A stretch of DNA of 64,000 bases from a virus. Lineage: Duplodnaviria > Caudoviricetes. A program made the position numbers and the translations under genes. Of this stretch, positions 29,461 through 56,856 are shown piece after piece (positions within the stretch are counted from its first letter, which is position 1; each line of letters begins with the position of its first letter). The stretch is taken from positions 1 through 64,000 of IMG/VR virus record IMGVR_UViG_3300033463_000095, one strand, 5' to 3'. Below the pieces are notes generated by a model. The model searched no databases and was not told the origin of the DNA. It saw only the letters and a program-made list of their open reading frames with translations.

Positions 29461-29486
29461 AATTAAGAAAATTGGAGAAAAAGGAG

Positions 29487-32400
29487 ATGGAAGAAAATAT
29501 GTATGAAAATAAAATATTAGACGCCATTCAAATGCTAGTAGATAATGCTATTGATAAAGCAAGTTTCGATAAAACTATTAGAGGTGTTATTTCTAAATGC
29601 GTAGATGAAAAGAATGGTAAATATGTAGTTATTTATCAAGATAGTTCTTTTTATGCGTATAGTACAGATACTAGCCAAATTTATAGTGCGGGAACTCCTG
29701 TATATGTTTTAGTACCTCGAAACGATATGAAACAAACTAAAACTATTATTGGTTCAGTTAATAAACTTGGTTCTGATTACATTAATACTATTGAAAGTAC
29801 TGATAGATATGAAGTTATTGGTAATTCAGTAGCTACTTTAGATTCAGAACAAGGGGTTTGTTCTTATAAAGTTGATGGAGATGCTTTAATTCTATATGAT
29901 AAAACTGCAGTTAGTTCAATAGTAGATATTGATACAGTTGCGGCAACCACTTATATAAAACAAGCTAAATACTTAACTTTAGGTGGAGAATTTAGAACAG
30001 CTTTAGCAAAAGAGCAAAGATATAAAGGTAATTATGGATTAGGTTTTGATATTAATTTTACAGATAATATGACTAATGAAACTGTTAAAAGAACATATTT
30101 AGTTGATGTAAATAATATGTTAGGTAATCCTTATGAATATACAAAAGCAAGTAATCAAAAAGTAGTATTTGACATTGATGGTGCTAATTTTGTTGATATA
30201 GATAAAATTTATTTATTTTGTTATGACTTCCCTGTTACAACTGCGGAAACGAAACCAGACGATATATTCGTGGTTAATCTTACTTTAGAGGCAGCCGCCG
30301 CGCTTACAGATGATGAATTAGCAGGAAATAAATTAACTTTAATAACTCCTCAAGGAATCTATTTTAGTAATAATGACAGTATCACATCTAGCAGAAAAAT
30401 TGACACAGAGGTTAAAATAGATAACAAAGTGGTTAACAAAGATTCGAGTCTTTTAAAATATTTTTGATTTAAAGAGAATTATAGTATAAATACATCTAGT
30501 CTATTGTATAATAGATATGGTGGTAATGGTTGGGAATGTTTAAATGAATATAATATAGTTGAAACTGATGGTAATAATAATCCAACTTTAATAGATTGAA
30601 TAACTAATCAATCTAGTTATCTCATAAGAAAAAGTAATACAATAGCGAGAGAGACTGATTACAAGTGTGTAGTTTCTTACAATAATGAAATTGTATTAAC
30701 TAAAAAATTTACTGTTTATAATTATAGTTCTAATTATATTGTAACCATTGATTCAGATAGTGGAACTTATTTTTCTTATGATAATGGACGTCCTACATTA
30801 ACATGTACAGTTAATCAAATTGGTAGTTATGAGTATGTTTGAGGTATGATGAATGGCGGAGGCGCTTTTACTCCAATTCAAGAAACTACAACTACAAATA
30901 CGGCATATCATACTGCCGCAGATAGATATACTGAGTTAGAAACTGGTTTAAGAAATGGAACTATTGTATTAACTTCAGCAATTCAACAAGAGTTTAGTGA
31001 TTTAAAATATACTTTAGAACAATATAATAATGATATTATGAGAGTAGAAGATAATGTTATTTATAATTTAAAATTAAATATGATAACTAATTTTGCTACT
31101 TTTGTATGTTCAGTTTATAATAATGGAGCTTATATTGGTAAAGGCTCTATTAAAATAGAAAACGATTTAAATACTAGTGATAATAGTTATACTTTAATAA
31201 TTAATAATGGAGACCAAGTATTTAAATATAATGGAGATGGAATTTCTCCAACTAGTAGATCATTAGATAAGCCTCAAGAATTATATCCATTATCTTTTAC
31301 TTTATATGATGAAAAAGGTAATGAGATTAGTAATGATGTAATAAACGCAGATAAGGTATATTGGACAGTACCTACTTCTGATACTATGATTAAAGTATCT
31401 GCAGTTCATGGTAATCCAAGTGAAGTTGATGAGTATGCGGAAACTGCTACTTATACAGGCTATAAATCATTTAATTTTGAAATACCTGTATTATACACTG
31501 CTAATAAAACAAGAAACACAATTCAATTAAAAGTTAAATATAAAAATAAAATAGTAGTTGCTAATACTGAATTAATGTTCTTAAAAGAAGGTGAGTCAGG
31601 TTCTAATGGTACTGATTTTATATGTAGAATTGTACCTAATACAATAGATGGAGCTATACCTCCTTTATATCCAATAGTAACTTGAAATAATAATGCGGCA
31701 GCTGGTGCTACTAACCCAGTAATTAACTTTACACCTCGAACTAGTGGAGTATGGTTTAAGGCTCAATTATATCATAATGGTAGTGAAATATTCGATAGTC
31801 CTGTTTCTGGACCTACAACTGAAGATAAAAATGTCATACTTAAATGGGAAATGATAAAAAACAAATATGATACAACTCATTCAGATGTATCTAATTTTAA
31901 TGTTAATAGTTCTACTGGAGTTTTTAGTTATGATAATTTAGATAATATTACAAATGAAACTTTAAAATCTAATCCTGTAAATATAGTTAAATGTACTTTG
32001 ACTTATGATGAAATTGATTATGTTGCGACAATACCTATTATACTAGTTAAAGTTAATAATAGTGGAAGTGCACAATATAAGGTTGAATTAATTGAAAATA
32101 CAGGATTTAGATATGCGATGTATACAACCGACGGCCGCACTCCTATTTATGATAATTCTAATCCATTTGCATTAAAGGTTATACAAACAGTTGAAAATAC
32201 TGACCAAGATATTAGTATAAATACATTAACTGATTATGCTGTTGATTATAATTGAAGTGTAAAAGGTTTAATTTATGCTAATGATTGAGAAACTCAATCA
32301 AATTTAATTTTAGATACTTTACGTTCTAGAAATTTACAAAGAAATGAAAAATATTATAAACCTGTTGATAATTTTAATGGTTTATGTTTAAGTAATGCAT

Positions 32401-35400
32401 TATTTTGTGATATTAAAAGAAATAATGTAACTTTAGCAACTATTCACTTACCAATTCATATGTATTTAAATAGATATGGAAATGCGGCAATGAATAGTTG
32501 AGATGGAAATTCCATTGCTATTGATAATGATGGTGGTTTCATTTTAGCACCTCAAGTTGGAGCAGGTAAAAAAGAACAAGATAATTCATTTACAGGTGTA
32601 TTTATGGGTTCAGTTAAAGAAGCTGGATCTAGTGAAGAAGAAGTCGGCCTATTTGGATATAATAGCGGTGCCCGCACACTTGAATTGAATTCAAAAGATG
32701 GTTCTGCTAAATTTGGTAAGGTTGGAAAAGGTCAAATTATAATTGAACCAGGTGAAGATAAAGCAGTTATTCAATCTGGTGATTATGAAATGATATTATC
32801 TCAAGCCTCAGGTAAATATATTGCTGGTAATGTATATTTTAGAAGAGCTGATAATGTATATACTGAGCTTGATGAAGGTACTGATTATCACAATGGAGAT
32901 AATATTACAGGTGGTAACATTTATGTATGAACTGATGGTTCTGGTATGGAAATTGACTTAAATGATCCGCATATTAGATTCGGTAGTGGCAATTTTAGAA
33001 TTGATTCAGATGGTAACGTGTATGCTAAGGGTTATGCTACTATTGCTGAATTGGAAGCTGGAGATGTTAATATCCCTGGTATTGAAAACTGGAAAGCTGA
33101 GTACGCTACTGATAGAGTTCAATTTGAAACAGATTCAACATTAACACCTGTTGACACTAATTTAACAAAAACAATTACAGGTAAATGTTTATATAAAGAT
33201 AGTTATGTATCTGGTTATACAGTTCAATTAGTTGATGCAGGCGGAAATCCAATTACACATGATCAAACTACTGATGGTATTGGAATTTCAACTAATACAA
33301 CTGGACAAGTATTTACAATTAGTTTTAATGCACAATCCCAATATACATGAACTAATGCAGTAAATAATTATAATTTTAAATTTAGTTATACACCTATTGG
33401 TAGTACAACTCAAAGTATAATTAAACAATTTAGTGCTAATGCAGTTATAATGGCAGAGGATGGAAGAGGTATTACTTCTGTTGAAGTAAGATATCAAAGT
33501 GGAATATCTGGAACCACTCCTCCTAGTGATGAATCTGGATGGGTAGTAAATCCTCCTAGTGTTGCTCAGGGAAATTATTTATGAACAAGAACTAAAATAA
33601 ACTATTCAACTGGAAATCCTGACATTAGTTATTCAGTTGCCTATATGGGTACTGATGGTCAACAAGGTCAAGCAGGAGCGTCTTCTTATACTTATGTAAG
33701 ATATTCAATTAATTCAACAGGTAATCCAATGGTTGATACTCCAACTAGTGAAACTAAATATGTTGGTATTTATAGTGGAAATAGCTCTACAGTTCCAGCT
33801 TATACTGCATTTACTTGATCTAAGTATGTAGGTGAAAATGGAGCTCCTGGAGTTGGAGTTTCTAACACAGAGGTAAAATATCAAGGAAGCTCTTCTGGAA
33901 CTACTCCACCTAGTAGTGAAGCAGGATGGGTAGATGCACCACCTACTGTAACACAAGGAAATTATTTATGAACAAGGGTAAAAATAACTTATACTAATAA
34001 TACTACTTCAACAAGTTATTCTGTTTCTTATATTGCAGAAGATGGAACTGCAGGAACTTCTTATTATACATATATAAGATATTCTGCTAATAGTGATGGA
34101 AGTAATATGGTTACAAATCCAACTAGTTCAACAAAATATATTGGAGTTTATTCAGGAACTAGTTCAACAGTTCCAGCTTACACATCTTTTATTTGGTCTA
34201 AATATATGGGAGATAATGGTGATAATGGTAGAGGCATTACATCTGTTGTTATTACTTATCAAGAAGGTACTTCTGGAACCACTCCACCAAGTAATGTTAG
34301 TGGTTGAGTAAACAACCCTCCGAGTGTAACCCCTGGTAACTATTTATGAACAAGAGCTATAACAAATTATACTGATTCAAGTTCTCCTTCTATAAGTTAT
34401 TCAGTTGCGAGAATGGGATTAGATGGACAAACTGGAGCTCAAGGGCCTGCGGGACCAGCTGGAAAAGACGGAACTTCAGTTACAGTTAAAGGTTCTTATA
34501 ATACTTTATCAGATTTGATTACTGCACATCCAAGTGGCAATACCTTAGGTGATGGATATGTTGTTGGAAACGATTTATATGTATATACAAATGCGGCTGG
34601 CGGTGGAGGATCTCAAACTGGCGACTGGAATGATGTAGGTCAGTTTAAGGGATTAGATGCAAAGAGATGCTTTATAGTAGCTTCTACTGAGGTATTTAAA
34701 TCTACAAATGGAGGAAGTACATTTACTCCAACATCAACAACTATAACTCCTTATTTCCAAGCTGTAAGTTATACAAGTTGAGCTTATAGTACAAATGGAG
34801 GAAGTTCATTTACTACTATAACAGGAACTGTTAGTGGTATTTCAATTGATAATACTTCAAAAGTTTTAACATTACAAAATTCAAGTACATTATTTAATAC
34901 AAACTCAACATTAGTATTTAAATGTTCTACTGATGATGCTGATGTTTTTGATACTATTACAATTACTAAGATTCAAGATGGTGTAAATGGACGTGGAGTT
35001 ACTTCTACTTCAGTTACATATCAAGCTGGTACAAGTGGCACTGTAGAGCCTTCAGGAACATGGTCTAGTTCAGTCCCATCTGTAAGTACTGGTCAATTTT
35101 TATGAACTAAAACAGTATTAACCTATACTGATAATACATCTACAACTAGTTATGCAGTTGCATATAGAGGAACAAATGGAACTTCTATTACTATATCAAG
35201 TCAAAGTATTCAATATGCTCAAGGAGATAGTGGAACTACTGCTCCTAGTAGCGGATGGCAAAGTTCAATACCTTCAGTTGCAGATGGTAAATATTTATGG
35301 ACTAAAACTACTGTTAACTACTCTGATAATACTACAACGACTAGCTATTCAGTATCATATCAAAGTATTGATGGTGTTAATGGAATTAGTGCTACAAATA

Positions 35401-37844
35401 TAGTATGCGGAAATGAAGCTCAAGCAATAGTATGTAATGCTAGCGGAAATGTAAGTGCAGCAACAACTATAACAATTCCTTTTGCAGGATATATTGGAAG
35501 TAGTAGAGCTGCATGTTCAGTTACTTATAGTACATTGCCTAGTGGTATCACTTTAACATCTAATACTGCAGCAACAACTAGTGCAGATGGTAGCTTAGTA
35601 TTAATGGTTGCCGCAAATTCGAATCTTGGTGGAACAACTAATGGAGTAATTACATTAACATTTAGTTGTAATTCACAGACTTTTGTTAAAAAATTTAACT
35701 GAGCAAAATCTATTGCAGGAGTAAATGGAACTAATGGAACAAGTCCTTATAATGTTATTTTGACTAACGAATCACAAAGTATTGCTGGTAGTACGACTGC
35801 GGCAATAGCTACTACAATTACAACTAATGTTCTTGGATATATGGGAACTTCTCAACAAAACACAACTGTTGGAACTATAACTGGACTTCCTACAGGAATG
35901 ACTGCCGCAATAAGTAATAATGGTTCAACAAATACTTCTATTACTTTTACAGTTACTACAAGTATGACAACTAAATCTGGTCAAGTTACAATTCCAGTTA
36001 CTATGGGATCAACAACCATAAATAAAATTTTTAGTTATTCATTAAGTTTAACAGGTGCGACTGGATCTGCAGGAACCGCCGCCAAGGTTGTAAATATTAG
36101 TCCTAGTTCACAAATATTTAAATCAACAACCGGAGCAAGTGGAACATTTACTCCACAATATATATATTTATATCCTAATTTTCAAGGGTGTAGTTATTCT
36201 AAATGGCAATACTCAACGGACGGAACTACTTGAACTGATGTAACAAGTGGTTCTAATAGTCTAACTATCGGAACTTATAATTCAATAGCTAATAGTTTGA
36301 GAATTGAAAGAAATAGTAATTTATATACAAGTTCAATTACTTCAGTTTCATTTAAATGCATTTCAAACACTGCAAGTGTTTATGATATTGTTAGTATTGC
36401 TAAAATATATGATGTAACTGAAATTGAAATAGGTGGAAGGAATTTGATTTTAGGTACAAGTAAAGATGAATGAAGTTTTACTGCTAATATGTCTGATTAT
36501 TATAAATTTTCTAGTTATGCAAAAGAATATATTAAATCAACAGATACATTAACTTTAACATTAGAAGCTAAAGGTAGTGTAGCTATGTGATTTGATATGT
36601 ATTATAGATCAAGTTCAACTTCTTACACTAGTGGTTTTTATCCAACATTTCAAGTTACAACAGATTATCAAAAATTTACTTACACTCATTTATCAGCTCA
36701 AGATTTAGCAGATATGACTTCATTAAGAATTAGACAAAATGCAAGTTCTCACGGTAGCAGTTCTCAACAAGGTACATTATATATTAAAAATTTAAAACTT
36801 GAAAAAGGTAATGTAAATACAGATTGAACCGCTGCTCCTGAAGATTTAAAAAATAATCAATTATTACAATACGCAACTACAGAAAATGCGGCGGCCCCTG
36901 CTAGTGGAGCGTCATGGTCGCCTTCAGTTCCAATATCTACAGAATATTATATTTGACAAAGAATGCAAACAACTTATGACAATGGAACTATTGAATATAG
37001 TACTCCAGTATGTATTTATACGCCACCAATTCAAATAAGTAGTATTGAAGAGCAATATTTTATTCATACTAGCGATACGACACCGCCATCAGAAAGTTCT
37101 ACAGAGTGATTAAATAAAAAACCTGAATGAAAAGATGAATATTATCAACCTTCTACAAGAAGATATTTATGAGTTAGAACTAAATATACTTATACAGGCA
37201 ATATATCAAAAGTAGAATATTCAATACCTTATTATGATCCAACTTGAGAAACCATTTCCGCACTTAATGCATCTATAATTGAAAATGCAGATAAGGTTAA
37301 TGCGGCAATTAATAATGGTTATGTTACAATTAAAGATGGTTATATTGAAATTAAAGACACATCAGATCCAAATAAAGGTATTTTGTTAAGTAAAGAAGGT
37401 ATTTCATTTAAAATAAATAATAATACTTATACTTCTGTATGAGCTCTTGATGGTACATTTAATGCTCAAAGTATTTTAGTTCAAAATTTAAATGCAAGTA
37501 ATATTTTAAGTGGTACGCTAACATTGCAAGAAGCAAATGATTCAACTAATGGAGTATTTGTATTACTAAATGATGGCGGAAATCAAGTTGCAAAAATAGA
37601 TGTTAATGGTTTAAAGGTAACTGCTGTTGATGGTAGTTATGTTTATTTAAGAACAGGTGAAGATGATAATACTAAAAAAGGTATTTATTTAGTAGATGCT
37701 ACTGGAAATACATTTGTTAGTAGTAATACTACAAATGGAATATTTACAGTAACTAAAGAAGTTATTACTGATTATCAAGAGTTTAGTGGTAATATTAGAA
37801 TTATTCAACTTGGTAATCGTGGAATTGGATTTATTGGAATCTAA
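29487..37844 (+). CDS. Giant tail adhesin/host-specificity protein (2785 aa) with repeated beta modules and short collagen-like Gxx runs
   Basis: One frame under code 4; repeated GRGITS...YQ.G.SGT.PP..W...P.V..G.YLWT and YxRYS...KYxGIY...WSKY modules; GAQGPAGPAGKDG; GGRNL...KLEKGN..TDW..APED segment. Confidence 0.85.
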
Positions 37845-45829: not shown

Positions 45830-45901
45830 ATGAGTAAGTCAGGAATTGAAAATGTTGAAATAACTGGTCAAGTTTCTGGAGAAGAAGGAGGGGAAGAATA
45901 G
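45830..45901 (+). CDS. 23-aa acidic peptide upstream of the endolysin
   Basis: MSKSGIENVEITGQVSGEEGGEE; AAAGGAGG RBS; TAG overlaps the endolysin GTG. Confidence 0.5.
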   Translation: MSKSGIENVEITGQVSGEEGGEE

Positions 45902-46917
45902 TGTACGCAGGACAAAGATCTATTAGAGATGGTATAGAAGATTTTATGTGTCCTTTTACAGATTTCTATATGACTTGTGGACCTAATGAATCTCAATTTC
46001 ATATGGGAACAATGGCAATAGATGTAAGAGGAGCTGAACCTGGAGTATGTTATGCTTATTATGCTCCCGCTACTGTTAGATGTATCACTACATATCCACA
46101 ATCAGGTCAAGCAATGTGGCAAACTGTTAATAATGTAAGATGTTCTAATGGATACATTGGAAAAGTAACATTTATGACAGTACACGATGATACTTTAAAT
46201 GCTTATCCAGGTATGGTAGTTAATCAAGGTGATCAATTAGGTAATATGGGAACTAAAGGTTATGCTACTGGAGTTCATTGTCATATTGAATGTAGTCAAT
46301 CAGATAATACTTCTTGGTGGCAAAATAGTTATGGTAATTGAAATTTTAATTATGAGGTAGATCCTGAAGATGTGTTCTTTATGGATAATACTAATATTTT
46401 AAATGGAATGGGAAATTGGAAATATTTAAGTGATGTACCTGTAAAAGATAAAGTAACACCAAATGTAGATAGAGATGAATATAAAAATCAAATTGAAGTT
46501 ATAGTACCTGAATTAAGAGTTAGAACAGATGCTAGTTTAAGTGCGGAAATCCTTAGTTATGCAGGACAAGGTTATTTTGATTATTATGAAACAAGAGATA
46601 ATGATGACTATACTTGGTATAGAATTGCAGACAATCAATGGATAGCTTATTCAGATGAATGGGAAAGAGTATACCCTGCTAAACCTAGAGAAGAATTTGT
46701 TAATATTCCACCTACAATAGAAGCAAGAAATATCTATATGTTAGATGATAAATTACAATTTGCTGCTTTAAATCCAGGTAATACAGATGGTTTAAGTTAT
46801 AAAATATTATCTAAAGATGGAGAATATGCGGAAATTGCAATTGGAAATGTTTGAATTAAGGTTACAGATAGTACACCAGTAACTAACGAACCACAATATA
46901 GTAGAGGAAATAAATAG
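45901..46917 (+). CDS. Endolysin: M23-family peptidase plus SH3-like cell-wall-binding region (338 aa)
   Basis: HMGTMAID (HxxxxxD-like), MTVHDD, MGTKGYATGVHCHIE (HxH); C-terminal VPELRVR...YTWYRIADNQWIA; two in-frame TGA (46339, 46852). Confidence 0.8.
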
Positions 46918-46991
46918 CGGGAAGGCGGTCTGTCCGAACATGGGTAGATACCCTAGGACAGAGCGTGGCTTCCGCATTGGGAGGTTTTGTT
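46914..46991 (+). promoter_or_regulatory. GC-rich structured leader upstream of the holin
   Basis: Stems GCGG(G)AAG/CTTCCGC, TCTGTCC/GGACAGA and GGGT/ACCC directly before SD GGGAGG (46979-46984). Confidence 0.6.
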
Positions 46992-47234
46992 GTGAAAAAG
47001 AAATGGACATTAGCTGATAAACTTTATAAAATTTTAAAATGGGTTTTAGCAACTGCTGTTGCACCAACAGTAGCACTTATTACAGGATTAGGAGAGTTAT
47101 ATCATTTTGATACAACTTTAATAGTTGGAACAATTACATTAGTTGCAACTTTCTTAGGTGCATTGATTGGTTATTCTAGTCATAATTATAAAGTTAATCA
47201 AGCAAACGAATCAGGTAGCGAAGCAGCTGAATAG
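46992..47234 (+). CDS. Holin, Dp-1 family-like (80 aa)
   Basis: GTG start with SD; LYKILKWVLATAVAP...IVGTITLVATFLGALIGYSSHNY, two TM segments; follows the endolysin. Confidence 0.8.
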   Translation: MKKKWTLADKLYKILKWVLATAVAPTVALITGLGELYHFDTTLIVGTITLVATFLGALIGYSSHNYKVNQANESGSEAAE

Positions 47235-47296: not shown

Positions 47297-47338
47297 ATAA
47301 TAAGGTAATAATACTTGAAGAAAGGAAGGTTTGTAAAG

Positions 47339-47812
47339 ATGCCAGAACTATTTAAAACATATACATTAGATGAAATCGTTGTTTTTATTATTCTTTTGGC
47401 TCTTGCAATAAAAAGTATAATTGATTTATATGATTGGTTTATTGCTCGTTTTAAAAAACCAATAGATAAAGCAAATAATGAGAAACAAAAGGAATTAGAT
47501 ATGCTAGATACATTAAATTCTCATGAAGAACAAATACTTGGATGCAAAGAGTGTTTAAATAAAATATTAACTACAACAAGTATTTTAATGGAATCTGATA
47601 AAGATGATATAAAAGCATGAATAACAGAAAAACATCATTATTTTTGTTATGAATTAGGTTATATTGATGATTATAATTTACAATGTATTGAAGCTAGATA
47701 TAAACATTACAAAGAAGAGGATGGTAATACTTTTATCGATGGTTTTATGATTGATATTAGAAAACTACCAATTGTTTCAGTTCTTAATAAAAAAGAAAAA
47801 GAGAATGAGTAA
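47339..47812 (+). CDS. Membrane protein with N-terminal TM and coiled coil (lysis-adjacent family)
   Basis: TM segment IVVFIILLALAI; read-through KAW(TGA)ITEKHH...YKHYKEEDGNTFIDG. Confidence 0.65.
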
Positions 47813-47843
47813 TTCAAATAAGAGATTAAAAGGAGTGATATAA

Positions 47844-49493
47844 ATGAGTATTGTAACAAACTTATATCCACCAGTAATATATAATAGTTATATGCCTGCA
47901 TTTGTATATAATACAACTGCTAGAGTTTATTTTAGTTTATCTGAATTTAATAGTTTAAGTGAGATGAAAAGTTATGCACAAGTAACTGTTAGTAATCAAA
48001 ATACTAATTTAAGTGTTCTTGATACCAGTAAATATCCAAGTGAAATAATGCTTACTACTATTAAAACTGATAGTACTAGAACAACAGATGATAAATATTA
48101 TATTGAAATTGCTAATAGTGATATTAATGGCGGATTTCAAATAGATGAATATTATAATGTTCAAATTAGATTTATTGATGGTGCGGCAACCGATATGGCT
48201 TTAACCACACCTCAAGCACTTGATGCATGACTTGCCGCAAATTTAGATTACTTTTCTGAATGATCTAGATTAATCATCATTCGCGCCATAAGTCAACCTA
48301 CTATGTCAGTAGCTGGATATGAAATTGTAGATGGTCATATCACATGGTCAATGGCTAATAATAATTTAATTGGAACATTAACATTTGCCGCAGATGATGA
48401 AACTGAATATTTAAAAGATTATAGAATTAAATTATATAATTCAGATGATGAATTATTAACTGATAGTGAAACATTATATACAGATAATTATAATAACCCA
48501 AACTCATTTATTTATAGTTTTAAATATAATTTTGAAATAGGTGAATCATATTCATTTACTATTGATTATGAAACTAATAATTTATATAGTAATTCAACTA
48601 CTATTGAATTTGATGTAGTTCAAGATAGTCCAGATGAAGTAGATTTTTCATTCGGTGCTAAGTTAGATGAGAATAATGCAAGAGTAGATATTGATATTAA
48701 ACGTAGTGAAGATAAACCTAGTTACACTGGTAAGTTAGTTATTAGAAGAACTTCTAGTGAAAGCAATTTTACTATATGGGAAGATATGCATGTTATTAAT
48801 TTAACTGCGGTAACTAGATATAAATATGAATGATTTGATGAAACTATTAAAAGTGGAGTATGATATAATTATGCTTTACAAGAAGTTAGTACAGGCAATA
48901 TAAGGCAAGGTATTAGAATTGGTAAAAAACCTTTAATGGCTATATTTGATGATGTATTCTTAACTACAAAAGATAAACAATTAAAAATTAAATTTAATCC
49001 TACTGTTAATTCATTTAAACAAAATATTAGTGAAATGAAAATTGAAACAATAGGAAATAAATATCCATTTATAAGAAGAAATGGTTCTATTAACTATGCG
49101 GAATTCCCTATTTCAGGATTAATCTCATTCCAAATGGATGAAGACCAAATTTTTATAACCAAAGAAGAATTATATTTAAATAAAACTATTATGAAGAAAT
49201 ATGATAGATACAATGATGAAATATCTGAAGACTTACCTATTACTGAAGCAAATGATTTTGTTTATGAAAAATTATTTAGAGATAAGGTAATGGAATTTTT
49301 ATATGATGGGGAAACTAAATTATTTAGGTCTCCAACTGAAGGAAATTATTTAGTTAGATTGTTAGATGTTTCTTTTGCTCCTAACCAATCTTTAGGTCGA
49401 ATGATTTGAAGTTTTTCTGCGACTGCAACCGAAATAGATGAAGATACTGTTGATAATTATGAAAAATATGGTATAATTGCGGCAAGGGGGTAA
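47844..49493 (+). CDS. Tail/baseplate-like structural protein (549 aa)
   Basis: Joins fragments 47844, 48303 and 48936 via TGA; Ig/Fn3-like middle; C-terminal IETIGNKYPFI...FPISGL...KLFRSPTEGN resembles distal-tail proteins. Confidence 0.55.
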
Positions 49494-49499
49494 TTGATT

Positions 49500-51539
49500 A
49501 TGAAAGTTAATTATCCTTATTTAAGTGATAGTAATTTTTTAGATACTATTGACACAATGCATTATCTAGAACAATATGTTAAGATTACTGCTCTTGATTG
49601 AGATGAAAGACCAATTAAAGATATTCAAGGCATTATTAACAATGGTAGCATTAGTATTGATGGTAAATCTGCTGTAAGAAGAACTATTAGTTTAAATTCT
49701 TCTTTTGGTAGTAATGTTACTGATGTAAATAACATTTTTTCTATTAATAGAAAAATTAATGTTGAAATTGGTTTTAAAAATAATACTAACAAATATGTTG
49801 ATTATCCTATTATATGATTTCCACAAGGTGTTTTTATTGTTATTTCCGCAAATGTGAGTCATAGTTTAGGTGGAGTAACAGTTAATCTACAAGCAAGAGA
49901 TAAAATGAGCTTATTAAATGGAGATTGCGGCGGTGTGATCCCCGCGTCAACACGATTAGATACATATGAAACTGTGGATAGTGAAGGTAATTGAGTAGTT
50001 GAAAAACCTTGTATTGACCAGATTATTAGAGAAGTAGTTAATCACTTTGGAGAAGAACAATTAAGTAGAATTATTATAAGTGATGTAGACAAGAGAATTA
50101 AGACTGTTATGAAGTGAATTGGTAATACACCTATTTATTTAATTACAGAAGGTGGAAATAATTGGTATACTACTGATTTTAGTAGAGCGGTTGCCGCAGG
50201 TTCTTATACTCAATATGATTATAATGCAGATGTTGGTTATATTTATTCAGATTTTACTTACGTAGGTGAATTTATTGCAGATGCTGGAAATACAGTTTGC
50301 AATGTGTTAGATAAAATAGTTTCTTATCTAGGTGGTAATTATGAATATTTTTATGATGTGTATGGTAATTTTATTTTTCAAGAAGTAAAAAATTATATGA
50401 ATATATCTCATCAAACAGTTGAAATAGATAAAATAAAAAATAGCGACTATCTTGTAGATATGAGTAGAGGTAGAATAGCTTATGATTTTAGTAATAAAAA
50501 TATAATTACTTCTTATTCTAATTCGCCTCAATATAATAATGTAAAAAATGATTTTATTGTATGAGGAATTAGAGAAACTTCTGAAGGACTTACTTTACCT
50601 ATTAGATATCATATGGCTATTGATACAAAACCTAAAACAGGAAATATATATAAAGTATTTTTCTATATAGATCCGGATGATGGATTAGAGAAAGCGAAAA
50701 TACCTATTAAATATGGTAGTTATGCGGCAATTACTGCTACACCAGGTAAGGCTGGAGTATTCTATGAGGATACCAGTACTGGCAATATATATATTTGAAA
50801 TGGCAGTGAGTATGAACAAGTAAGCGATAGTGAATTTGTAAGAATTATGACTAATGATTGGAGAAGTGAGCTATATTTACAAGGGGTTGCCGCTGAACCA
50901 TTGGGTATAGCATCTAATTATTATTATACTGAATTAGCTGCTGAATGACCTAAATTATACAATTTAAAAGCAGATAGTCATACCGATAGTGAAGGTACTT
51001 ATTATACAGGTGCTTTTTATCAAGATGTGTTAGATAATCCTTCTGGTATTGATTATTTCTTAGATTTTATTGATTCAGAAGCTGCTATATCTAAATTTAG
51101 TATTAAAAATATTGGTAGAAGAACTATTGTTGAGAACAGTAATGATTTTAATTGTGTATTTGAACCTACCATTCCTAATTTTGTTATTATAAATACTGCT
51201 AATCCTGAAGAGGCCGCAGAAAAACGTGCTGAATGTGAGGCTAGAGGACAAGCGTATATTCAAGTGGATGGAAACATATTTGATTCACTTGCGGTTGGTG
51301 GTAATTTTAATAGTTGCTATTGAGAAATAAAAAATTTATTATATACAAAAACTGGATATAATGAGACTATTCAAATACAAGCATTACCTATTTATCATAT
51401 TGAACCTAATATTAGAGTTAAGGCTTTTGATAGTAATAGCGATATATATGGTGATTATATGATTAATAGTATATCATTACCTTTAGGTATAGATGGACAA
51501 ATGTCGATTAGCGCTATTAGAGCTAATGAAAAAATATAA
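49500..51539 (+). CDS. Baseplate hub-like tail protein (DUF5048-like, 679 aa)
   Basis: One frame under code 4; GSISIDGKSAVRRTISL...DKMSLLNGDCGG...YFYDVYGNFIFQE...NVKNDFIVWG. Confidence 0.55.
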
Positions 51540-51542
51540 AAT

Positions 51543-51583
51543 AAAAAAGAGATGAACTTTTTATGGTTCATCTCTTTTTTTTT
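51543..51583. terminator. Bidirectional intrinsic terminator
   Basis: AAAAAAGAGATGAAC...GTTCATCTCTTTTTT. Confidence 0.8.
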
Positions 51584-51704
51584 GCTTTAAATTTGAGGAG
51601 ATTTTATTATTTAAACTGTTAGTTTATTAATATGATGATAGTTTGATTATAAGTTTTAAAAATTTTTATTTTAGTGCCAAATTTATAAGTTTTTATAAAA
51701 ATTT

Positions 51705-51744
51705 TGACAAAGTAAGGAAATGAGTTTTTATAAAAACTTATATA
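51705..51744 (+). promoter_or_regulatory. Putative late promoter motif copy with an internal 16-bp palindrome
   Basis: TGACAA-N29-ATATA; AGTTTTTATAAAAACT at 51723-51738 lies within the spacer. Confidence 0.55.
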
Positions 51745-51785
51745 ATAATGTAAGGAAATAACAATAGAAAGGAGTATTTAAAATT

Positions 51786-52211
51786 ATGAACTATTATCCT
51801 AACAATAATTTTTATCAAGGCTATTCAAGTTATAATAATACTTATCAACCTGCGGCGACGGCGATTAACGCTCTTCAAGGTAAGATTGTTGATAGCATAG
51901 ACATGGTTAGAGCTAATGAGGTTCCATTTGGTGGATTTGGTATCTTTCCTAAAGGAGATTTAAGTGAAGTATATATTAAATCATGGAATAGCAATGGAAC
52001 TACTCAAATTAATACTTACAAACCTGTACCTAATGAAGAATCAATAGAGGTTAAAGAAAATAATTTAAGAAATGAATTACTTGAAAAGATTGATGATTTA
52101 AATAAAAAATTAGATATGCTAATGAGCGGCAATGGCGCTAAAGTAGAACAGACTTCAGTACCAGCTACACAACTAGCCGCCGCAAAGGATGTGAGAGTAA
52201 ATGCTTATTAA
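51786..52211 (+). CDS. Cassette gene 1: Tyr/Asn/Gln-rich N-terminus plus small beta domain
   Basis: ORF track; AGGAG RBS. Confidence 0.75.
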   Translation: MNYYPNNNFYQGYSSYNNTYQPAATAINALQGKIVDSIDMVRANEVPFGGFGIFPKGDLSEVYIKSWNSNGTTQINTYKPVPNEESIEVKENNLRNELLEKIDDLNKKLDMLMSGNGAKVEQTSVPATQLAAAKDVRVNAY

Positions 52212-52452
52212 AAGTCCTCAAGATATGTTTAAATTAATTTCTAATTTTAAAAATCAAGATCCTTCAACTATTGTAGCTAACATGGTAAATGAAGCTGCAG
52301 AACAGGGTAATCCAGTCATGCAAAACTTATCAAACTTGATTAAAGAAGGAAAAACTGATGAAATAGAACAAGTTGTTCGTAATATTGCTAAAGAGCGTGG
52401 AATGGATTATGATAAAGAATTTAAAGCCTTTAAAAAAACTTTTAGGCTTTAA
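52201..52452 (+). CDS. Cassette gene 2: small helical protein
   Basis: ORF track, 83 aa; overlaps gene 1. Confidence 0.75.
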   Translation: MLIKSPQDMFKLISNFKNQDPSTIVANMVNEAAEQGNPVMQNLSNLIKEGKTDEIEQVVRNIAKERGMDYDKEFKAFKKTFRL

Positions 52453-52488
52453 AGATATATAAAAATATTTTAGGAAAGGAGAGTTTAT

Positions 52489-53316
52489 ATGTTTAGTTCA
52501 AACAATGGTTACAGCTTAGCTGATATAGCTGCAGCAACTGGCAATAACAACGGAGGTTTCTTTGGAAATGGCTTCGGTGGAGACGGCTGGTGGATTATTA
52601 TTTTATTCTTATTCGCATTTGGTGGATGGGGATTCGGAGGAAACGGTTTCTGAGGAGGAAATGGTGGAATTAACAGCGCTGCCGCACAAGGTGCTTTAAC
52701 TAGATCTGATTTAAGTCAAGAATTAGGTTTCTCAGATTTATCTCATACAATGAGAAATGCTAGAGAAGATTTAAGTAGTGATTATCACGATTTAAGCACA
52801 AATATTTTACAAGGTGTTTGTGATTTAAATGGTGTAATTAATGCAGGATTTAATACAACTAATAGTAATTTAAATAACTTAGGTTATCAATTACAATCAG
52901 GTATTAATGATGTAAATGTTAATGGTATGAGAAATACTTTTGATATTGGTACACAAATTACTGCATTAGGAAATCAAATGGCTAGTTGCTGCTGCGATTC
53001 TAGATTCCAAATTGAAAAAGGTTTTGCAGATACTAATTATAATTTAGCAACTCAAGTAAATGCTATTAGAAATGATATTTGCACTCAAACAAGAGATATT
53101 ACAGATAATGCAAATGCTAATACTAGAGCTATTTTAGATTTCTTAACTAATAGTAAATTAGAAGACTTAAGAGATGAAAATCAAGCATTAAAATTTGCTG
53201 CATCTCAAGTTGCACAAAATAATTATTTAGTTGACCAACTTAGACCAAGTCCAATTCCAGCTTATATGGTACAAAATCCATATTGTTGTAATGGATATTA
53301 TAACACAATGATGTAA
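52489..53316 (+). CDS. Cassette gene 3: Gly-rich/TM N-terminus, coiled coil, Cys clusters (275 aa)
   Basis: MFSSNNGYSLADIAAATG...GGDGWWIIILFLFAFGGWGFGG; one TGA; SCCCD and NPYCC motifs. Confidence 0.8.
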
Positions 53317-53344
53317 TTAAAATTTTAAATGGAGGTAATAAAAA

Positions 53345-53770
53345 ATGGCAGAATTTACAGCTGTGGCTCAACAAACTGTTGAACCAAATCAAGTAGTTTT
53401 ATTTACAGATACCCCAGTGCGTGGTAGTAACTCCATAATGCATAGAGATGGTAGCGGGTTAGTTAGTTTACGTGGATTAACTTGCTGCCAACCTCGTGCA
53501 AGATTTAAAGTATCTTTTGGAGGAAATATTGCAGTGCCAACTGGTGGAACTGTAGGTCCTATTTCAGTTGCTATTGCAATTGATGGAGAACCTGTTACTA
53601 GTACAAAAATGATAGTAACACCTGCGGCAGTAGAAGAATTTTTCAATGTAAATAGAGATGTTAATATTGATGTTCCTGCAGGATGTTGTGCTCAAATAAG
53701 TGTTGAAAACACTAGCACAGGAGATATATTAGTAGAAAATGCAAATTTAATTGCAGAAAGGGTGGCATAG
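53345..53770 (+). CDS. Cassette gene 4: BclA C-terminal/C1q-TNF-like beta protein (tentative)
   Basis: All-beta pattern (QTVEPNQVVLF...FKVSFGGNIA...SVAIAIDGEP...ISVENTS...NANL); two CC pairs. Confidence 0.65.
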   Translation: MAEFTAVAQQTVEPNQVVLFTDTPVRGSNSIMHRDGSGLVSLRGLTCCQPRARFKVSFGGNIAVPTGGTVGPISVAIAIDGEPVTSTKMIVTPAAVEEFFNVNRDVNIDVPAGCCAQISVENTSTGDILVENANLIAERVA

Positions 53771-53771
53771 T

Positions 53772-54296
53772 ATGGAAAGATTAAAAGCAATGAAAGATAG
53801 GTTAATGAGTTGCGTTGAAAGTCAAATGAATGATTTGTCTAAAACAAATACTCAAGAATTAGGTGAAGTAGTTGACATGATTAAAGACTTAGAAGAAACT
53901 ATTTATTATTGCACTGTCGTTGAGGCTATGGAAAATAAGGATAAAGATAAAAATGTTATGTATTATCCTGTTATGTATACTGATGGCGGCAATAGATATT
54001 ATCCATCTACTAGCCGTATGTATTATAACGCCTATGACAAAGGTATGCGTGATTATGACAATATTTACCCTAGAAATGTAATGAAAGATTTCCGCGAAGG
54101 CAGAAGTGGTGAATATAGAAGAACCTATATGGAAACAAAAGAAATGCATCAAGGTAAAGAAAAACAAATGCATGATTTAGAAAAATATCTTCATGAATTA
54201 AGTGAAGATGTTATGGATATGATTAATGACGCTTCTCAAGAAGAAAAAGAAATTCTTTCTCAAAAATTAAATACTTTAGCAGAAAAAGTTAAATAA
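53772..54296 (+). CDS. Cassette gene 5: helical protein with Tyr-rich middle
   Basis: MERLKAMKDRLMSCVESQM...ELGEVVDMIKDLEE...YY; ATG at 53772. Confidence 0.75.
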   Translation: MERLKAMKDRLMSCVESQMNDLSKTNTQELGEVVDMIKDLEETIYYCTVVEAMENKDKDKNVMYYPVMYTDGGNRYYPSTSRMYYNAYDKGMRDYDNIYPRNVMKDFREGRSGEYRRTYMETKEMHQGKEKQMHDLEKYLHELSEDVMDMINDASQEEKEILSQKLNTLAEKVK

Positions 54297-54610
54297 TGTT
54301 TGATATAAATGGAATATGATGGAAAATAGAGTTTACTAATATGCGAAATCCCGCATTAAGACGCACAGATGGCACTTACGCTCTCGGAGTTTGCGATAAT
54401 AAAACTAAAACCATATATTTAGCAAGTTGATTAGAAGGAAGTATGCTAAAGAAAGTTCTTACCCATGAGATAGTGCATGCCGCAATGTTCTCCTATAATG
54501 TCTATCTTTCTCTTGAACAGGAAGAAGTAATTGCGGATATAATCGCTACTTATGGAGAAGAAATAATTAATATTACTAATAAAGTATTTAAAAAGCTACA
54601 ACATATTTAG
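54296..54610 (+). CDS. Cassette gene 6: small zincin-like metalloprotease (104 aa)
   Basis: Visible only under code 4 (two TGA); LGVCD...IYL...VLTHEIVHAAMF (HExxH)...EEVIAD. Confidence 0.75.
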
Positions 54611-54627
54611 TTGTAGCTCTTTTTTTA
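54594..54627. terminator. Terminator between convergent units
   Basis: AGCTACAAC...GTTGTAGCT plus T-tract. Confidence 0.7.
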
Positions 54628-55137
54628 TTCTCCTCAATTGAATCCTTCAGTTGTTGCTTTAGTAAACTGTGCTAATCCAATACATATTGCATCAGCTTCG
54701 TCATCATTTACATCTATGTTATATTTATTTTTAACAAAAGCAATATCTGCTTCTTTTAAAGTTGTTCTTTTAATACCACGTCCATTTTTAATACCAAGAG
54801 TTGCTCTTCATGAGCTTGGATATATATACTCAATGCCAATTTTTGGATAGTTATCGTGAATTAAGAATTCAACTGCAGCTTGTAAAAACATAAGTGCTTT
54901 ATGTGTTTTTTGATTACCAACACCATAGCCGCCTTCAGGTCTAACCTCTTCTATTATTAGTTTAGTTATATCTGGATTATTTTGTAATATAGTATTTATA
55001 TTATCGGTCATAACATGAATTCTTTTTATTAAATCTGTAGATGCGGAAGTTATACATCCATGAGTTGTAAGTTCACCATTGTTAAAGCAAGCCCAGCCGC
55101 TTGATTTAGTTGAAAGGTCTAACGCTAAGATTGCCAT
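54625..55137 (-). CDS. RuvC-like Holliday junction resolvase (170 aa)
   Basis: ILALDLSTKSSGW...LIIEE...PSSW(TGA)RATLG...DDEADAICIG acidic tetrad. Confidence 0.8.
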
Positions 55138-56234
55138 TCTGGATCACCTTCCTTAATTACTTTTATTAATTTAACATATTGTTGATTAAATGGATTATCA
55201 CCTGTTAATATATCTAATCTATCTCTTGATACTATCCACTGCTCTCCCTCTTCAGGAACATAACCTAATTGATTATCTATTCTATTTTCATTTTTATATG
55301 CTTTAGTTGCAGTAACCAGATATTTATTTTTTAATTCTTCTTGATAAATAGATTTGCTTTTTGTTATAAATTGATTTCAAATATCTTCTTTTGGTATATA
55401 TTTAAAATTAAATTCTTTTTCATAAATTTCTTTAGCAGGGATTTCCGCCATATCAAAAGGAAGAATAAAACCATATTTTTCATCTACACCTAATTCTTTT
55501 AAACATTTTCAAGGAGTAATTATAACAGGAGTACCTAGTAAGAGACTTTCTATCATAGTATAACAATAGGCTTCTGTATCACTTAATTGAATTACATAAT
55601 CTGCTTTTGCTATATAATCTCTTATATCTAACTGAGGTTTCATAAATATTATTCTAGGGTGTTGAATTGCCTGTGTATCATTCGTAAATACGAACCAAAT
55701 GTAGGGTATTCCTTCCTTATCAAGTGCTTCCGCTAGTTTTATTATTCTATCTTTACCCTTTTCTCTTGTTAATCTTGTAGCAGATACTAGCATTAATACC
55801 CTTTTAGGTTTTTCTATTGTTATTGGATTATAACATAATGTACAAGGTAATCCAGTTAATTCTGTAAAGCTATCACAAACAGCTTGACTTACGCCAATAT
55901 ATTCATCTATTTTAGGATGAACTTTTGGCATAACTCCCATATCTTTGTAATCAGCATGAATAATAGAATAATATTTATTAGCATGAACTTTTTCAATAGG
56001 TCTTAAATTATAATTAAAAAAGGCTTTATCACACTTAATATCTTGACCTGTATATTTTTCTACTCTAATATATTTTTTTAATCTTTTTAATTGTTCTTGG
56101 TCTCCTCAATTATAAAATATTGTAATATCATTTTCACAATATTTTTTTGCTATTTCGAAGAACATTGTTTCTACTCCACCTATTGAGTTAATTCTATCAA
56201 AATAAAATATATTAGTATAATAATCCTGTTTCAT
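55125..56234 (-). CDS. GT-B (GT4-like) glycosyltransferase (369 aa)
   Basis: IGGVET at the N-terminus, SATRLTREKG, EAYCYTMIE (Ex7E) LLGTPVI; three TGA. Confidence 0.8.
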
Positions 56235-56253
56235 TATTAACCCTCTCCATTTT

Positions 56254-56856
56254 TTAATTATTACCGCCTGTTACAGTTAAACTTCCAGGTCTACCATCAT
56301 TATAATAATAAAGTATTTTATTTATTATTTCTTTTTTACCATTTTTAGCTTTCATTACTTGTTGCCAAGAAATATCTTCACAAAATCTTATATTATCATC
56401 AAACAACTCTACATATTCTCTTTTATATATTGCATTTCATACAGCATAATTCCATTCTGGCGGATTGTCTTCTATTATTACAGTTAAATCTGAATTCATT
56501 GCTTTTCAACTAAAATAACAATAATCAAATTTACTTGTGTTTATTTTATTTAATATGGTTTTTATATAATCTAAAGCTATGCTATCATCACTATCTATAA
56601 ATACTAGATAACTACCTTTTGCTCTTTGTATTCCTTGATTTCTTGCATAACTTAGTCCATGATTTTCTTCTAAATGTATTATATTTATATTATATCTATC
56701 TAATCTCTCTTCATGACAACCGTCATCTATTAAAAACACTTCTACTTCATCAGTTAATTGTGGTATTAGTGTATCTAATAATTTAACTGTTTCTTCAAAT
56801 GTTTTATAATATGGAATAATAATTGAAAGCTTAATCAACAAATCCTCTTTTTTCAT
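56254..56856 (-). CDS. GT2-family glycosyltransferase (about 200 aa; true start may be TTG near 56841)
   Basis: SIIIPYY, LIDDG, GLSYARNQGI, FIDSDD. Confidence 0.85.

What the first reader, a model, noticed from the sequence alone, without database searches (positions are those of the whole stretch)
51786..54610. Self-contained six-gene cassette resembling a cross-linked protein shell or spore-coat-like system
Seen: a tightly coupled operon with its own putative late promoter and terminator. It encodes a Tyr/Asn/Gln low-complexity protein, a small helical protein, a Gly-rich membrane protein with coiled coil and CCC/CC clusters, an all-beta protein with two CC pairs (BclA-C/C1q-like pattern), a Tyr-rich helical protein and an HExxH protease. 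None is a known head, tail or lysis component. Known: spore crust and exosporium proteins (CotY/ExsY, BclA) are Cys-rich or C1q-fold and cross-link via disulfides or dityrosine. From memory (not a search), similar gene strings recur in gut Firmicute phages without assigned function. Inference: a late-expressed self-assembling surface or occlusion structure, matured by its own protease, that could protect virions or remodel the host cell or spore surface for transmission.
Basis: partly seen in the sequence, partly recalled or inferred. Interest (0 to 1): 0.85.

Follow-up and report, generated by a model that had tools for sequence, protein, structure and literature searches.

The report
Portable phage rod-and-knob gene cassette
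The six genes are a real, terminator-bounded copy of a very common but unstudied gut-phage cassette, built around a greasy-headed helical rod protein and a small knob folded like Bacillus spore-surface proteins; its job is unknown and does not look tied to spores.

Summary
Six tightly packed + strand genes (51786-54610) lie between two intrinsic terminators, at the end of the late block of a long-tailed phage that reads TGA as Trp. Genes 3 and 6 are whole only under that code.

- **Gene 4:** folds with very high confidence (pLDDT 97) into a TNF/C1q jelly roll.
- **Gene 3:** a conserved N-terminal peptide, a short and almost invariant Trp-flanked hydrophobic segment, a roughly 170-residue helical rod with an invariant CCC, and a Pro-rich Cys-rich tail.
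- **Synteny:** genes 3 and 4 are adjacent in 79 of 82 phage loci and 9 of 11 prophage hits. The other genes recur in distant phages.
- **Peptidase slot:** it holds either this HExxH enzyme or an unrelated Cys/His protein, never both.
- **Spore link:** rod-type cassettes also occur in crAss-like and Bacteroides phages, which argues against a spore-coat role.

No function could be assigned. My best reading is a peptidase-matured, membrane-anchored rod-and-knob assembly made late in infection. This scan has met the same cassette repeatedly on other DNA, with the same conclusion.

The parts
51543..51580 (+). Intrinsic terminator that ends the upstream tail-like gene (49494-51539) and isolates the cassette
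   Evidence: 16-bp stem with 4 GC pairs followed by a T-run.
51689..51759 (+). Promoter/operator-like region: TTGACA at 51704 and TATAAT at 51741 (31 nt apart), with two copies of GTTTTTATAAAAA...GTAAGGAAAT
   Evidence: The repeats are unique in the window. The region is conserved in relatives L003/L004. No canonical sigma-70 spacing was found, so function is inferred.
51786..52211 (+). g1, 141 aa: N/Y/Q-rich head, small domain, coiled-coil tail; unknown function
   Evidence: phrog_21718 at 2.9e-7. The first-position analogue in distant cassette L013 hits the same PHROG at 4.9e-25. The ESM Atlas finds only viral hypothetical clusters.
52201..52452 (+). g2, 83 aa, small charged protein, probably helical (not modelled); unknown function
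   Evidence: Conserved in 9 closer loci at 39-83% identity. A Q-rich 74-aa analogue holds the same slot in L013. No family hit.
52489..53316 (+). g3, 275 aa, the 'rod': conserved N-terminal peptide, G/N spacer, Trp-flanked hydrophobic segment (33-51), Gly-rich linker, helix about 81-251 with invariant CCC (167-169), tail with a P.P.PAY motif plus CC. In-frame TGA (Trp55) at 52651-52653.
   Evidence: phrog_16490 at 4e-42. At least 7399 homologue clusters. Invariant columns. The AF2 monomer is poor (pLDDT 48) but helical over 81-251. Flank charges.
53345..53770 (+). g4, 141 aa, the 'knob': stand-alone TNF/C1q-like jelly roll with no signal peptide
   Evidence: phrog_20016 at 8e-58. AF2 pLDDT 97. 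VIA Z 17.3 (9h38), 16.2 (1wck) and 15.1 (7r1m); Foldseek agrees. 645 clusters at 50% identity.
53772..54296 (+). g5, 174 aa: acidic N-terminal region, Tyr/Arg/Met-rich middle, C-terminal region scoring weakly on coiled-coil-type families (no model made); unknown function
   Evidence: Conserved in 9 closer loci. An analogue holds the same slot in L013. The ESM Atlas finds viral hypothetical clusters; the nearest named one is DUF7841 at 0.83, a lead only.
54296..54610 (+). g6, 104 aa, minimal HExxH zincin-like peptidase. In-frame TGA at 54317-54319 and 54428-54430.
   Evidence: H57, E58, H61, E76, E77 and D81 are invariant in 5 homologues. phrog_1233 at 3e-16, phrog_13742 'peptidase' at 1.6e-5, phrog_87 'metallo-protease' at 6.8e-5. 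Pfam DUF6782, SprT-like and M78 fall below their cut-offs.
54594..54618 (+). Intrinsic terminator that closes the cassette; convergent minus-strand genes follow
   Evidence: 9-bp stem with 4 GC pairs followed by a T-run. A minus-strand ORF with a RuvC-like N-terminus (my reading; no Pfam hit) starts at 55137, then two glycosyltransferases.

Best explanation
This is one copy of a portable accessory cassette of gut and rumen tailed phages. It is transcribed as its own unit at the end of the late gene block.

Shown:
- The core is a conserved gene pair. g3 has a short acidic N-terminal peptide, an almost invariant Trp-flanked hydrophobic segment of 12-16 residues, a helical stretch of about 170 residues with an invariant CCC, and a Pro-rich, Cys-rich tail.
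- g4 is a stand-alone TNF/C1q jelly roll.

Inferred:
- g3 forms a trimeric coiled-coil rod held in, or on, the cytoplasmic membrane by its hydrophobic head. The rod most likely faces the cytoplasm, because no other cassette product has an export signal.
- g4 trimers cap the rod by taking a Pro-rich g3 peptide into their inter-subunit clefts, as ExsF/BxpB takes the leader peptides of BclA and F-Anchor.
- The small zinc peptidase g6 matures one component, most likely the conserved N-terminus of g3.
- g1, g2 and g5 act as adaptors or matrix.

The biological role of the assembly is not established. It is not spore-specific.
For: - Terminators on both sides and a conserved upstream spacer.
- g3 and g4 are adjacent in 79 of 82 phage loci and in 9 of 11 prophage hits from a sample of about 400 genomes, including g4 relatives as distant as E 1e-10.
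- The order g1, g2, g3, g4, g5 is kept in the distant temperate phage L013, and g1 shares a PHROG with its analogue there.
- g4 fold. BFVD holds stand-alone knobs of 130-142 aa in sipho-, myo- and podovirus contigs, with TM scores up to 0.9.
- g3 anatomy and invariant residues: W34, W35, F42, G46, G48, C167-169, P255, P257, A258 and P264.
- The N-tail of about 30 aa is acidic, with almost no Lys or Arg (mean 0.5).
- ExsF binds Pro-rich leader peptides in its trimer clefts, and the BclA N-terminus is cleaved (PMC12357932).
- The peptidase slot holds either HExxH (9 loci) or a Cys/His protein (74 loci), never both. A zinc peptidase also closes the Bacteroides-phage version.
Against: - No complex could be modelled; the g3 monomer model is poor (pLDDT 48).
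- The hydrophobic core is short for a membrane span, and the flank charges give only a weak topology signal.
- The exosporium-leader model did not appear in the NCBIfam scan of g3 at E<=1.
- The g3 Pro-rich tail is kept even where no g4 homologue is detectable (hhalign probability <1%), so it may bind something else.
- N-terminal leader type does not track peptidase type strictly: L087 has the Cys/His protein but an ADIAAVT-type leader.
- The either/or pattern of the peptidase rests on few independent lineages.
- Peptidase activity and the Cys/His protein's fold are unproven (no hits).
Confidence: 0.45

Rival explanations
1. Virion accessory: g3 and g4 form a fibre with a receptor- or glycan-binding TNF-like knob that is added to the head or tail of the particle (a decoration or auxiliary adhesin). 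The other products would be assembly helpers.
For: - TNF-like knobs tip many phage fibres. Matches include cyanophage A-1(L) short tail fibre at Z 13.0, Sf6 needle knob at 9.6, PRD1 P5 at 9.8 and TM4 gp23 RBD at 9.9.
- The cassette has late-strand orientation directly after tail-like genes.
- Coiled-coil rods are typical fibre shafts.
- TNF-like lectins also appear among the matches (BC2L-C; PLTL and a Bdellovibrio fibre).
Against: - The cassette is a separate transcription unit behind a strong terminator.
- It sits at different genome positions in unrelated phages: after the endolysin, next to the integrase, or among replication genes.
- It occurs in sipho-, myo- and podo-type contigs, so it cannot depend on one virion architecture.
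- A conserved hydrophobic head and a private peptidase are unusual for fibres.
- g4 shows no hypervariable patch among 102 close homologues.
- No PHROG structural annotation.
Confidence: 0.2
2. Lysis-linked, membrane-active device: after leader removal, g3 acts like a class I fusion protein or a spanin. Its Gly-rich hydrophobic peptide would insert into a membrane and the coiled coil would refold, helping envelope disruption or release at the end of infection.
For: - The hydrophobic segment is the most conserved part of g3, as fusion peptides are.
- The g3 profile's only PDB hits are influenza HA2, starting at the fusion peptide, and coronavirus heptad repeats, at E 0.014-0.4.
- AF2 breaks the helix near residue 143, which is compatible with a hairpin.
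- The cassette often sits beside lysis genes: after the endolysin in Ceridwen and Dulem virus 33, and after the holin and a LysB-like gene in cr53_1.
- Spanins are Cys-linked coiled coils with Pro-rich partners (established knowledge).
Against: - The PDB hits are not significant and are probably compositional.
- Most carriers infect Gram-positive hosts, which have no outer membrane to fuse.
- This phage already has a holin and an endolysin 4.5 kb upstream.
- In C3_41T2LP the cassette lies among replication genes.
- The idea gives no role to a TNF-like knob or to three low-complexity proteins.
Confidence: 0.15
3. One reading: a spore-coat/exosporium-like or occlusion-like cross-linked shell that protects virions or remodels the host spore surface.
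For: - g4's nearest structures are exosporium proteins.
- Cys clusters and Tyr-rich low-complexity partners recall coat proteins.
- The exosporium nap also needs N-terminal cleavage of BclA.
- No cassette product has a signal peptide, as with mother-cell coat proteins.
Against: - No sequence match to any coat, crust or exosporium family.
- The cassette is present in a Butyrivibrio phage, and the rod-type core is present in Bacteroides and crAss-like phages.
- Only about 2% of sampled genomes of the class carry it, which is a prophage-like pattern.
- The Baculo_PEP_C hit is far below its cut-off (14.4 against 38 bits).
Confidence: 0.07
4. A moron-type cassette expressed from the prophage for superinfection exclusion or another host-benefit or defence function at the membrane.
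For: - In temperate relatives it occupies the classic moron slot between the lysis genes and the integrase, with its own terminators.
- It includes a membrane-anchored component.
Against: - Six co-conserved genes are far more than known exclusion proteins need.
- The cassette also occurs in crAss-like phages, which I take to be virulent (my knowledge), and here in a 72-kb window contig in which I saw no integrase.
- No PADLOC hit.
- It has the same orientation as the late genes.
Confidence: 0.08

Closest known systems
BclA / F-Anchor docking on the ExsF (BxpB, ExsFA) trimer of the Bacillus cereus-group exosporium (PDB 1wck, 9h38, 7r1m, 9h3d)
   Same: g4 has the same TNF/C1q jelly roll (Z 15-17) and, like ExsF, is a stand-alone protein of about 140-170 residues. 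A fibrous partner with a Pro-rich peptide and a proteolytic maturation step are plausible parallels.
   Different: - No detectable sequence homology: no BclA_C Pfam hit, 8-16% identity.
- The stalk is an alpha-helical rod with a hydrophobic head, not collagen.
- No exosporium leader was detected.
- The genes are phage-borne, late, and found in phages of non-sporulating hosts.
TNF-like knobs of phage fibres and needles (Sf6 tail-needle knob 3rwn, PRD1 P5 1yq5, cyanophage A-1(L) short tail fibre 8ke9, TM4 gp23 9n6a)
   Same: A trimeric jelly-roll knob at the end of a rod. The Sf6 needle is a coiled coil plus knob.
   Different: In those proteins the knob is fused to the shaft and encoded inside the tail module. 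Here the knob is a separate gene in a portable, terminator-bounded cassette with a peptidase. Structural scores are lower (Z 9.6-13.2).
Class I viral fusion proteins (influenza HA2) and phage spanins
   Same: A Gly-rich, strongly conserved hydrophobic peptide is followed by long Asn/Gln-rich heptad helices. Priming by proteolysis is possible. Spanins also carry Cys links and Pro-rich partners.
   Different: Only non-significant profile hits (E 0.014-0.4). There is no second membrane anchor. Most hosts are Gram-positive. This is an analogy, not membership.
Minimal zincins of mobile elements (SprT-like, ImmA/IrrE M78, DUF6782, MPTase-PolyVal)
   Same: g6 has the HExxH core, a size of about 100 residues and the preceding beta-strand motif. 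A 'PolyVal metallopeptidase' closes the Bacteroides-phage version of the cassette.
   Different: All Pfam scores fall below their gathering thresholds. The substrate is unknown. In most cassettes the enzyme is replaced by an unrelated Cys/His protein.

Membership tests
TNF/C1q-like jelly roll (BclA-C type fold), g4 | Compact ten-strand jelly-roll fold that superposes over the whole domain | tested here: met
   AF2 pLDDT 97. VIA Z 17.3, rmsd 1.8 A over 123 residues to 9h38; Z 16.2 to 1wck. Foldseek probability 1.00, TM 0.67-0.75.
TNF/C1q-like jelly roll (BclA-C type fold), g4 | Sequence membership of Pfam BclA_C (PF18573) or C1q | tested here: not met
   No Pfam family for g4, even at E<=1; no NCBIfam hit.
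TNF/C1q-like jelly roll (BclA-C type fold), g4 | Homotrimer | not testable with these tools
   Only monomer prediction was available.
BclA-type collagen-like exosporium glycoprotein | Collagen GXY stalk fused to the knob, plus an N-terminal exosporium leader | tested here: not met
   g4 is 141 aa and all jelly roll. No GXY repeats in any cassette product. The NCBIfam scan of g3 and g4 at E<=1 did not return an exosporium-leader model.
ExsFA/BxpB exosporium basal-layer protein | Stand-alone TNF-like trimer that binds a Pro-rich leader peptide in its inter-subunit clefts, in a sporulating host | tested here: inconclusive
   Fold and size are met (Z 15.1 to 7r1m). Peptide docking is not testable here. 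Host context is not met, since the cassette is phage-borne and occurs in a Butyrivibrio phage.
Cys-rich spore coat/crust/exosporium lattice proteins (CotY/ExsY/CsxA type) | Sequence or profile similarity to these families | tested here: not met
   No such family for any of the six proteins in Pfam or NCBIfam at E<=1.
Zincin metallopeptidase (HExxH), g6 | Conserved HExxH plus a downstream acidic or His third ligand | tested here: met
   H57, E58, H61, E76, E77 and D81 are invariant in 5 homologues at 50-75% identity.
Zincin metallopeptidase (HExxH), g6 | Score above the curated threshold of a named peptidase family | tested here: inconclusive
   DUF6782 21.9 bits (cut-off 27), SprT-like 16.8 (25.6), M78 13.0 (22). 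PHROG 'peptidase' and 'metallo-protease' at 1.6e-5 and 6.8e-5.
Phage lysis cassette (holin/endolysin/spanin) | Homology to holin, endolysin or spanin families, with no other lysis genes in the phage | tested here: not met
   No lysis PHROG among the six. A separate endolysin (45901-46917) and holin (46965-47234) exist.
Class I viral fusion protein | Significant profile similarity or a trimer-of-hairpins fold | tested here: inconclusive
   HA2 and coronavirus-spike hits only at E 0.014-0.4. The g3 model is too poor to compare.
Anti-phage defence systems | Match to a PADLOC model | tested here: not met
   No hit at E<=0.1 for any of the six.

The most novel reading that the evidence does not exclude
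The cassette encodes a previously undescribed, self-contained machine of tailed phages. A protease-primed, fusion-protein-like trimeric rod carries a highly conserved Gly-rich hydrophobic peptide. A TNF-like knob aims or caps it, and prion-like Tyr/Arg/Gln-rich partners embed it. It would be shared by phages of both Gram-positive and Gram-negative gut bacteria and would remodel a membrane, or build a cross-linked structure, late in infection.
Probability: 0.15. Interest if true: 0.85.

Novelty: new variant of a known kind. Interest (0 to 1): 0.55.

Why it matters
The two core families each have thousands of sequence clusters in gut and rumen viromes, yet no paper in the searched library describes them and every database calls them hypothetical. 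The cassette moves between unrelated phages: temperate 40-kb phages, large stop-codon-recoded phages and crAss-like phages. It keeps its gene order and always carries a private peptidase. That argues for a selected, self-sufficient function in infection that current phage biology does not name. Cultured carriers exist (Butyrivibrio virus Ceridwen and Bacteroides phage C3_41T2LP), so the question can be tested directly. This window adds a copy from a TGA-to-Trp phage and shows the HExxH variant of the peptidase slot.

Tried and rejected
- **Family scans:** Pfam, NCBIfam and PADLOC scans of all six proteins gave nothing above threshold.
- **g3 structure:** the AF2 model was too poor (pLDDT 48) for a fold search.
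- **Protein atlas:** g5 and g1 returned only viral hypothetical clusters.
- **Genome searches:** the alignment-based search of genome contigs failed for lack of conserved stretches. The single-protein scan gave only 3 loci.
- **Literature:** searches for BclA-like or C1q-like phage proteins, DUF7841 and the B. uniformis host strain MB20-41 found no description of the cassette.
- **Leader type against peptidase type:** the idea that the g3 leader tracks the peptidase type is contradicted by L087.
- **Diversifying patch on g4:** per-site entropy shows only scattered variable sites.
- **Position-4 beta proteins of cr53_1 and C3_41T2LP as g4 homologues:** hhalign probability is below 1%.
- **Cys/His protein:** no PDB or Pfam match, so 'cysteine peptidase' remains a motif-based guess.
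- **Promoter:** no canonical sigma-70 promoter upstream of g1.
- **Residue encoded by TGA:** a PDB search with the tail-protein C-terminus, run to check it, found nothing. Codon comparison with relatives settled it instead.
Full report
**Setting**

The window is part of a 72-kb virus contig with about 28% G+C. Under table 11 the + strand block is shattered. With TGA read as a sense codon it closes into long genes:
- a sigma factor, terminase and portal;
- a 2621-aa tape-measure protein and a 2790-aa protein;
- tail proteins, an endolysin (45901-46917) and a holin (46965-47234).

TGA means Trp. In the cassette genes of relatives L003 and L004, TGG and TGA swap at four conserved Trp positions, namely g3 W35 and W47, g6 W9 and g1 W67. 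Long ORFs hold 174 TGA against 115 TGG, and the contig has no tRNA gene.

After the cassette the strand flips. The minus-strand genes there are:
- an ORF with a RuvC-like N-terminus (my reading; no Pfam hit);
- two glycosyltransferases;
- thymidine kinase;
- dUTPase.

**The observation**

Six genes lie at 51786-54610: g1 (141 aa), g2 (83), g3 (275, one TGA), g4 (141), g5 (174, ATG 53772) and g6 (104, two TGA). They overlap or sit 1-36 nt apart.

A 16-bp-stem terminator (51543-51580) precedes the block and a second one (54594-54618) closes it. The 246-nt spacer upstream is the longest in the late block. It holds TTGACA and a twice-repeated element that is unique in the window and conserved in L003/L004. 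No canonical sigma-70 spacing is present. The block is therefore an isolated unit with a probable, unverified promoter.

**The knob (g4)**

g4 matches phrog_20016 (8e-58), a family of unknown function, and no Pfam or NCBIfam family. It has at least 7983 clusters at 90% identity and 645 at 50%, nearly all stand-alone proteins of 135-160 aa.

With a 70-sequence alignment, AF2 gives pLDDT 97. The model is a TNF/C1q jelly roll. VIA-align scores are:
- Z 17.3 to the F-BclA C-terminal domain;
- Z 16.2 to the BclA C-terminal domain;
- Z 15.1 to ExsFA;
- lower scores to C1q/TNF proteins and phage fibre tips.

Foldseek agrees. BFVD shows the same stand-alone knob in sipho-, myo- and podovirus contigs. 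g4 has no signal peptide and no collagen stalk.

**The rod (g3)**

g3 matches phrog_16490 (4e-42) and has at least 7399 clusters. Alignments show a fixed plan:
1. a short conserved N-terminal peptide;
2. a Gly/Asn spacer;
3. a Trp-flanked hydrophobic segment, which is the best-conserved part of the protein (W34, W35, F42, G46 and G48 invariant; L39, F40 and L41 nearly so);
4. a Gly-rich linker;
5. a long helix, 81-251 in the poor AF2 monomer (pLDDT 48), with an invariant CCC;
6. an invariant Pro-rich motif (P255, P257, A258, P264) followed by Cys or Cys/Gly tails.

The N-tail averages 30 residues, is acidic and has almost no Lys or Arg. The C-side flank is also acidic but carries slightly more positive charge. 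That weakly favours the N-terminus outside and the rod inside.

The g3 profile hits only influenza HA2, from the fusion peptide onward, and coronavirus heptad repeats, at E 0.014-0.4. These hits are not significant. They probably explain the 'spike glycoprotein' label on crAss-like homologues.

**Conservation of the set**

g3 and g4 are adjacent in 79 of 82 phage loci. They are also adjacent in 9 of 11 prophage hits from a sample of about 400 genomes of one bacterial class. Only 9 of 399 scored genomes carry g4 at all.

Nine closer loci, all from 9-185-kb contigs, keep g2 to g6; three of them keep g1 as well. Some of those relatives carry in-frame TAG in their g3 and g6 homologues.

The distant temperate phage L013 keeps analogues of g1, g2, g3, g4 and g5 in the same order, next to its integrase. 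Its first-position protein shares phrog_21718 with g1. In Butyrivibrio virus Ceridwen and Dulem virus 33 the set follows the endolysin.

**The peptidase slot**

g6 has invariant HExxH plus E76, E77 and D81, with sub-threshold zincin hits. Across the 99 loci held:
- 9 have the HExxH gene at the end of the cassette;
- 74 have an unrelated 125-147-aa protein at the front, with invariant Asp-Cys, His and Asp residues;
- none has both.

This looks like non-orthologous replacement and ties a protease-like activity to the cassette. Two cautions apply. The loci represent few independent lineages, and the Cys/His protein has no detectable relative. Leader type in g3 does not strictly follow peptidase type (L087).

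**Beyond Firmicutes**

crAss-like cr53_1 and Bacteroides uniformis phage C3_41T2LP encode full g3-type rods with the hydrophobic head, the CCC and the Pro-rich tail. Each rod is followed by a small beta-rich protein with no detectable g4 homology and by a coiled-coil protein. Both phages also carry Arg/Asp/Tyr-rich sequence and a DUF7841 protein (1.9e-42 in cr53_1). C3_41T2LP adds an HExxH peptidase. These hosts do not sporulate, which argues against a spore-specific role.

**Interpretation**

Shown:
- a portable, self-contained cassette;
- a knob with the exosporium-type TNF fold;
- a conserved hydrophobic-headed helical partner;
- a peptidase slot.

Inferred:
- a trimeric rod anchored in or on the membrane;
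- a knob docked on a Pro-rich g3 peptide, as ExsF binds the leaders of BclA and F-Anchor (PMC12357932);
- proteolytic maturation;
- low-complexity partners acting as adaptors.

The role is open.

**Earlier scan notes**

After my fold results I consulted the scan's notes. The same cassette has been reported many times on other DNA. Follow-ups reached the same verdict: rod-and-knob, function unknown, not spore-tied. I treat these notes as agreement, not as evidence.

**Limits**

No multimer modelling was possible.

Noticed in passing
whole window, e.g. 52651, 54317, 54428: The phage reads TGA as Trp on both strands. Long ORFs hold 174 TGA against 115 TGG, and relatives swap TGG and TGA at conserved Trp positions. 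No tRNA gene is on the 72-kb contig, so any suppressor tRNA lies elsewhere or the host itself uses code 4.
   Followed up: partly
L010:5876-6745 and 7851-8153; L011: Relatives with the same HExxH-type cassette carry in-frame TAG, not TGA, in their g3 and g6 homologues. The cassette is therefore shared by phages with different stop-codon reassignments. crAss-like cr53_1 also uses TAG as a sense codon.
   Followed up: partly
21529-29394 and 29472-37844: Two giant genes. One is a 2621-aa tape-measure protein (PhageMin_Tail, 6e-29), which implies a very long tail. The other is a 2790-aa protein with no family match.
   Followed up: partly
5242-6336: A phage sigma factor (phrog_5767, 1.7e-43) with a C-terminal HNH/Zn-ribbon-like end. 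A near-consensus extended -10 sigma-70 promoter (TTGACC, 17 nt, TGTGATATAAT) lies upstream.
   Followed up: no
45901-47234: The endolysin and holin are embedded among tail-like genes, and three more + strand genes (47315-51539) follow before the cassette.
   Followed up: partly
55125-56856 (- strand): Two glycosyltransferases (GT1 and GT2 families) converge on the cassette, followed by thymidine kinase, dUTPase, DUF5662 and a phosphoesterase. Whether the glycosyltransferases modify cassette products is unknown.
   Followed up: no
L083:3123-3758 and L099:7021-7422: DUF7841 proteins accompany the rod gene in crAss-like and Bacteroides phages. In cr53_1 the domain is fused to an Arg/Gly/Tyr-rich tail that resembles the middle of g5 in composition.
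   Followed up: partly
L085/L086 (CAVEPP010000001.1): A 46.7-kb contig binned as Alloprevotella carries the cassette at both ends. It is probably a circular phage genome assembled with a terminal duplication, so the bin name is not good host evidence.
   Followed up: no
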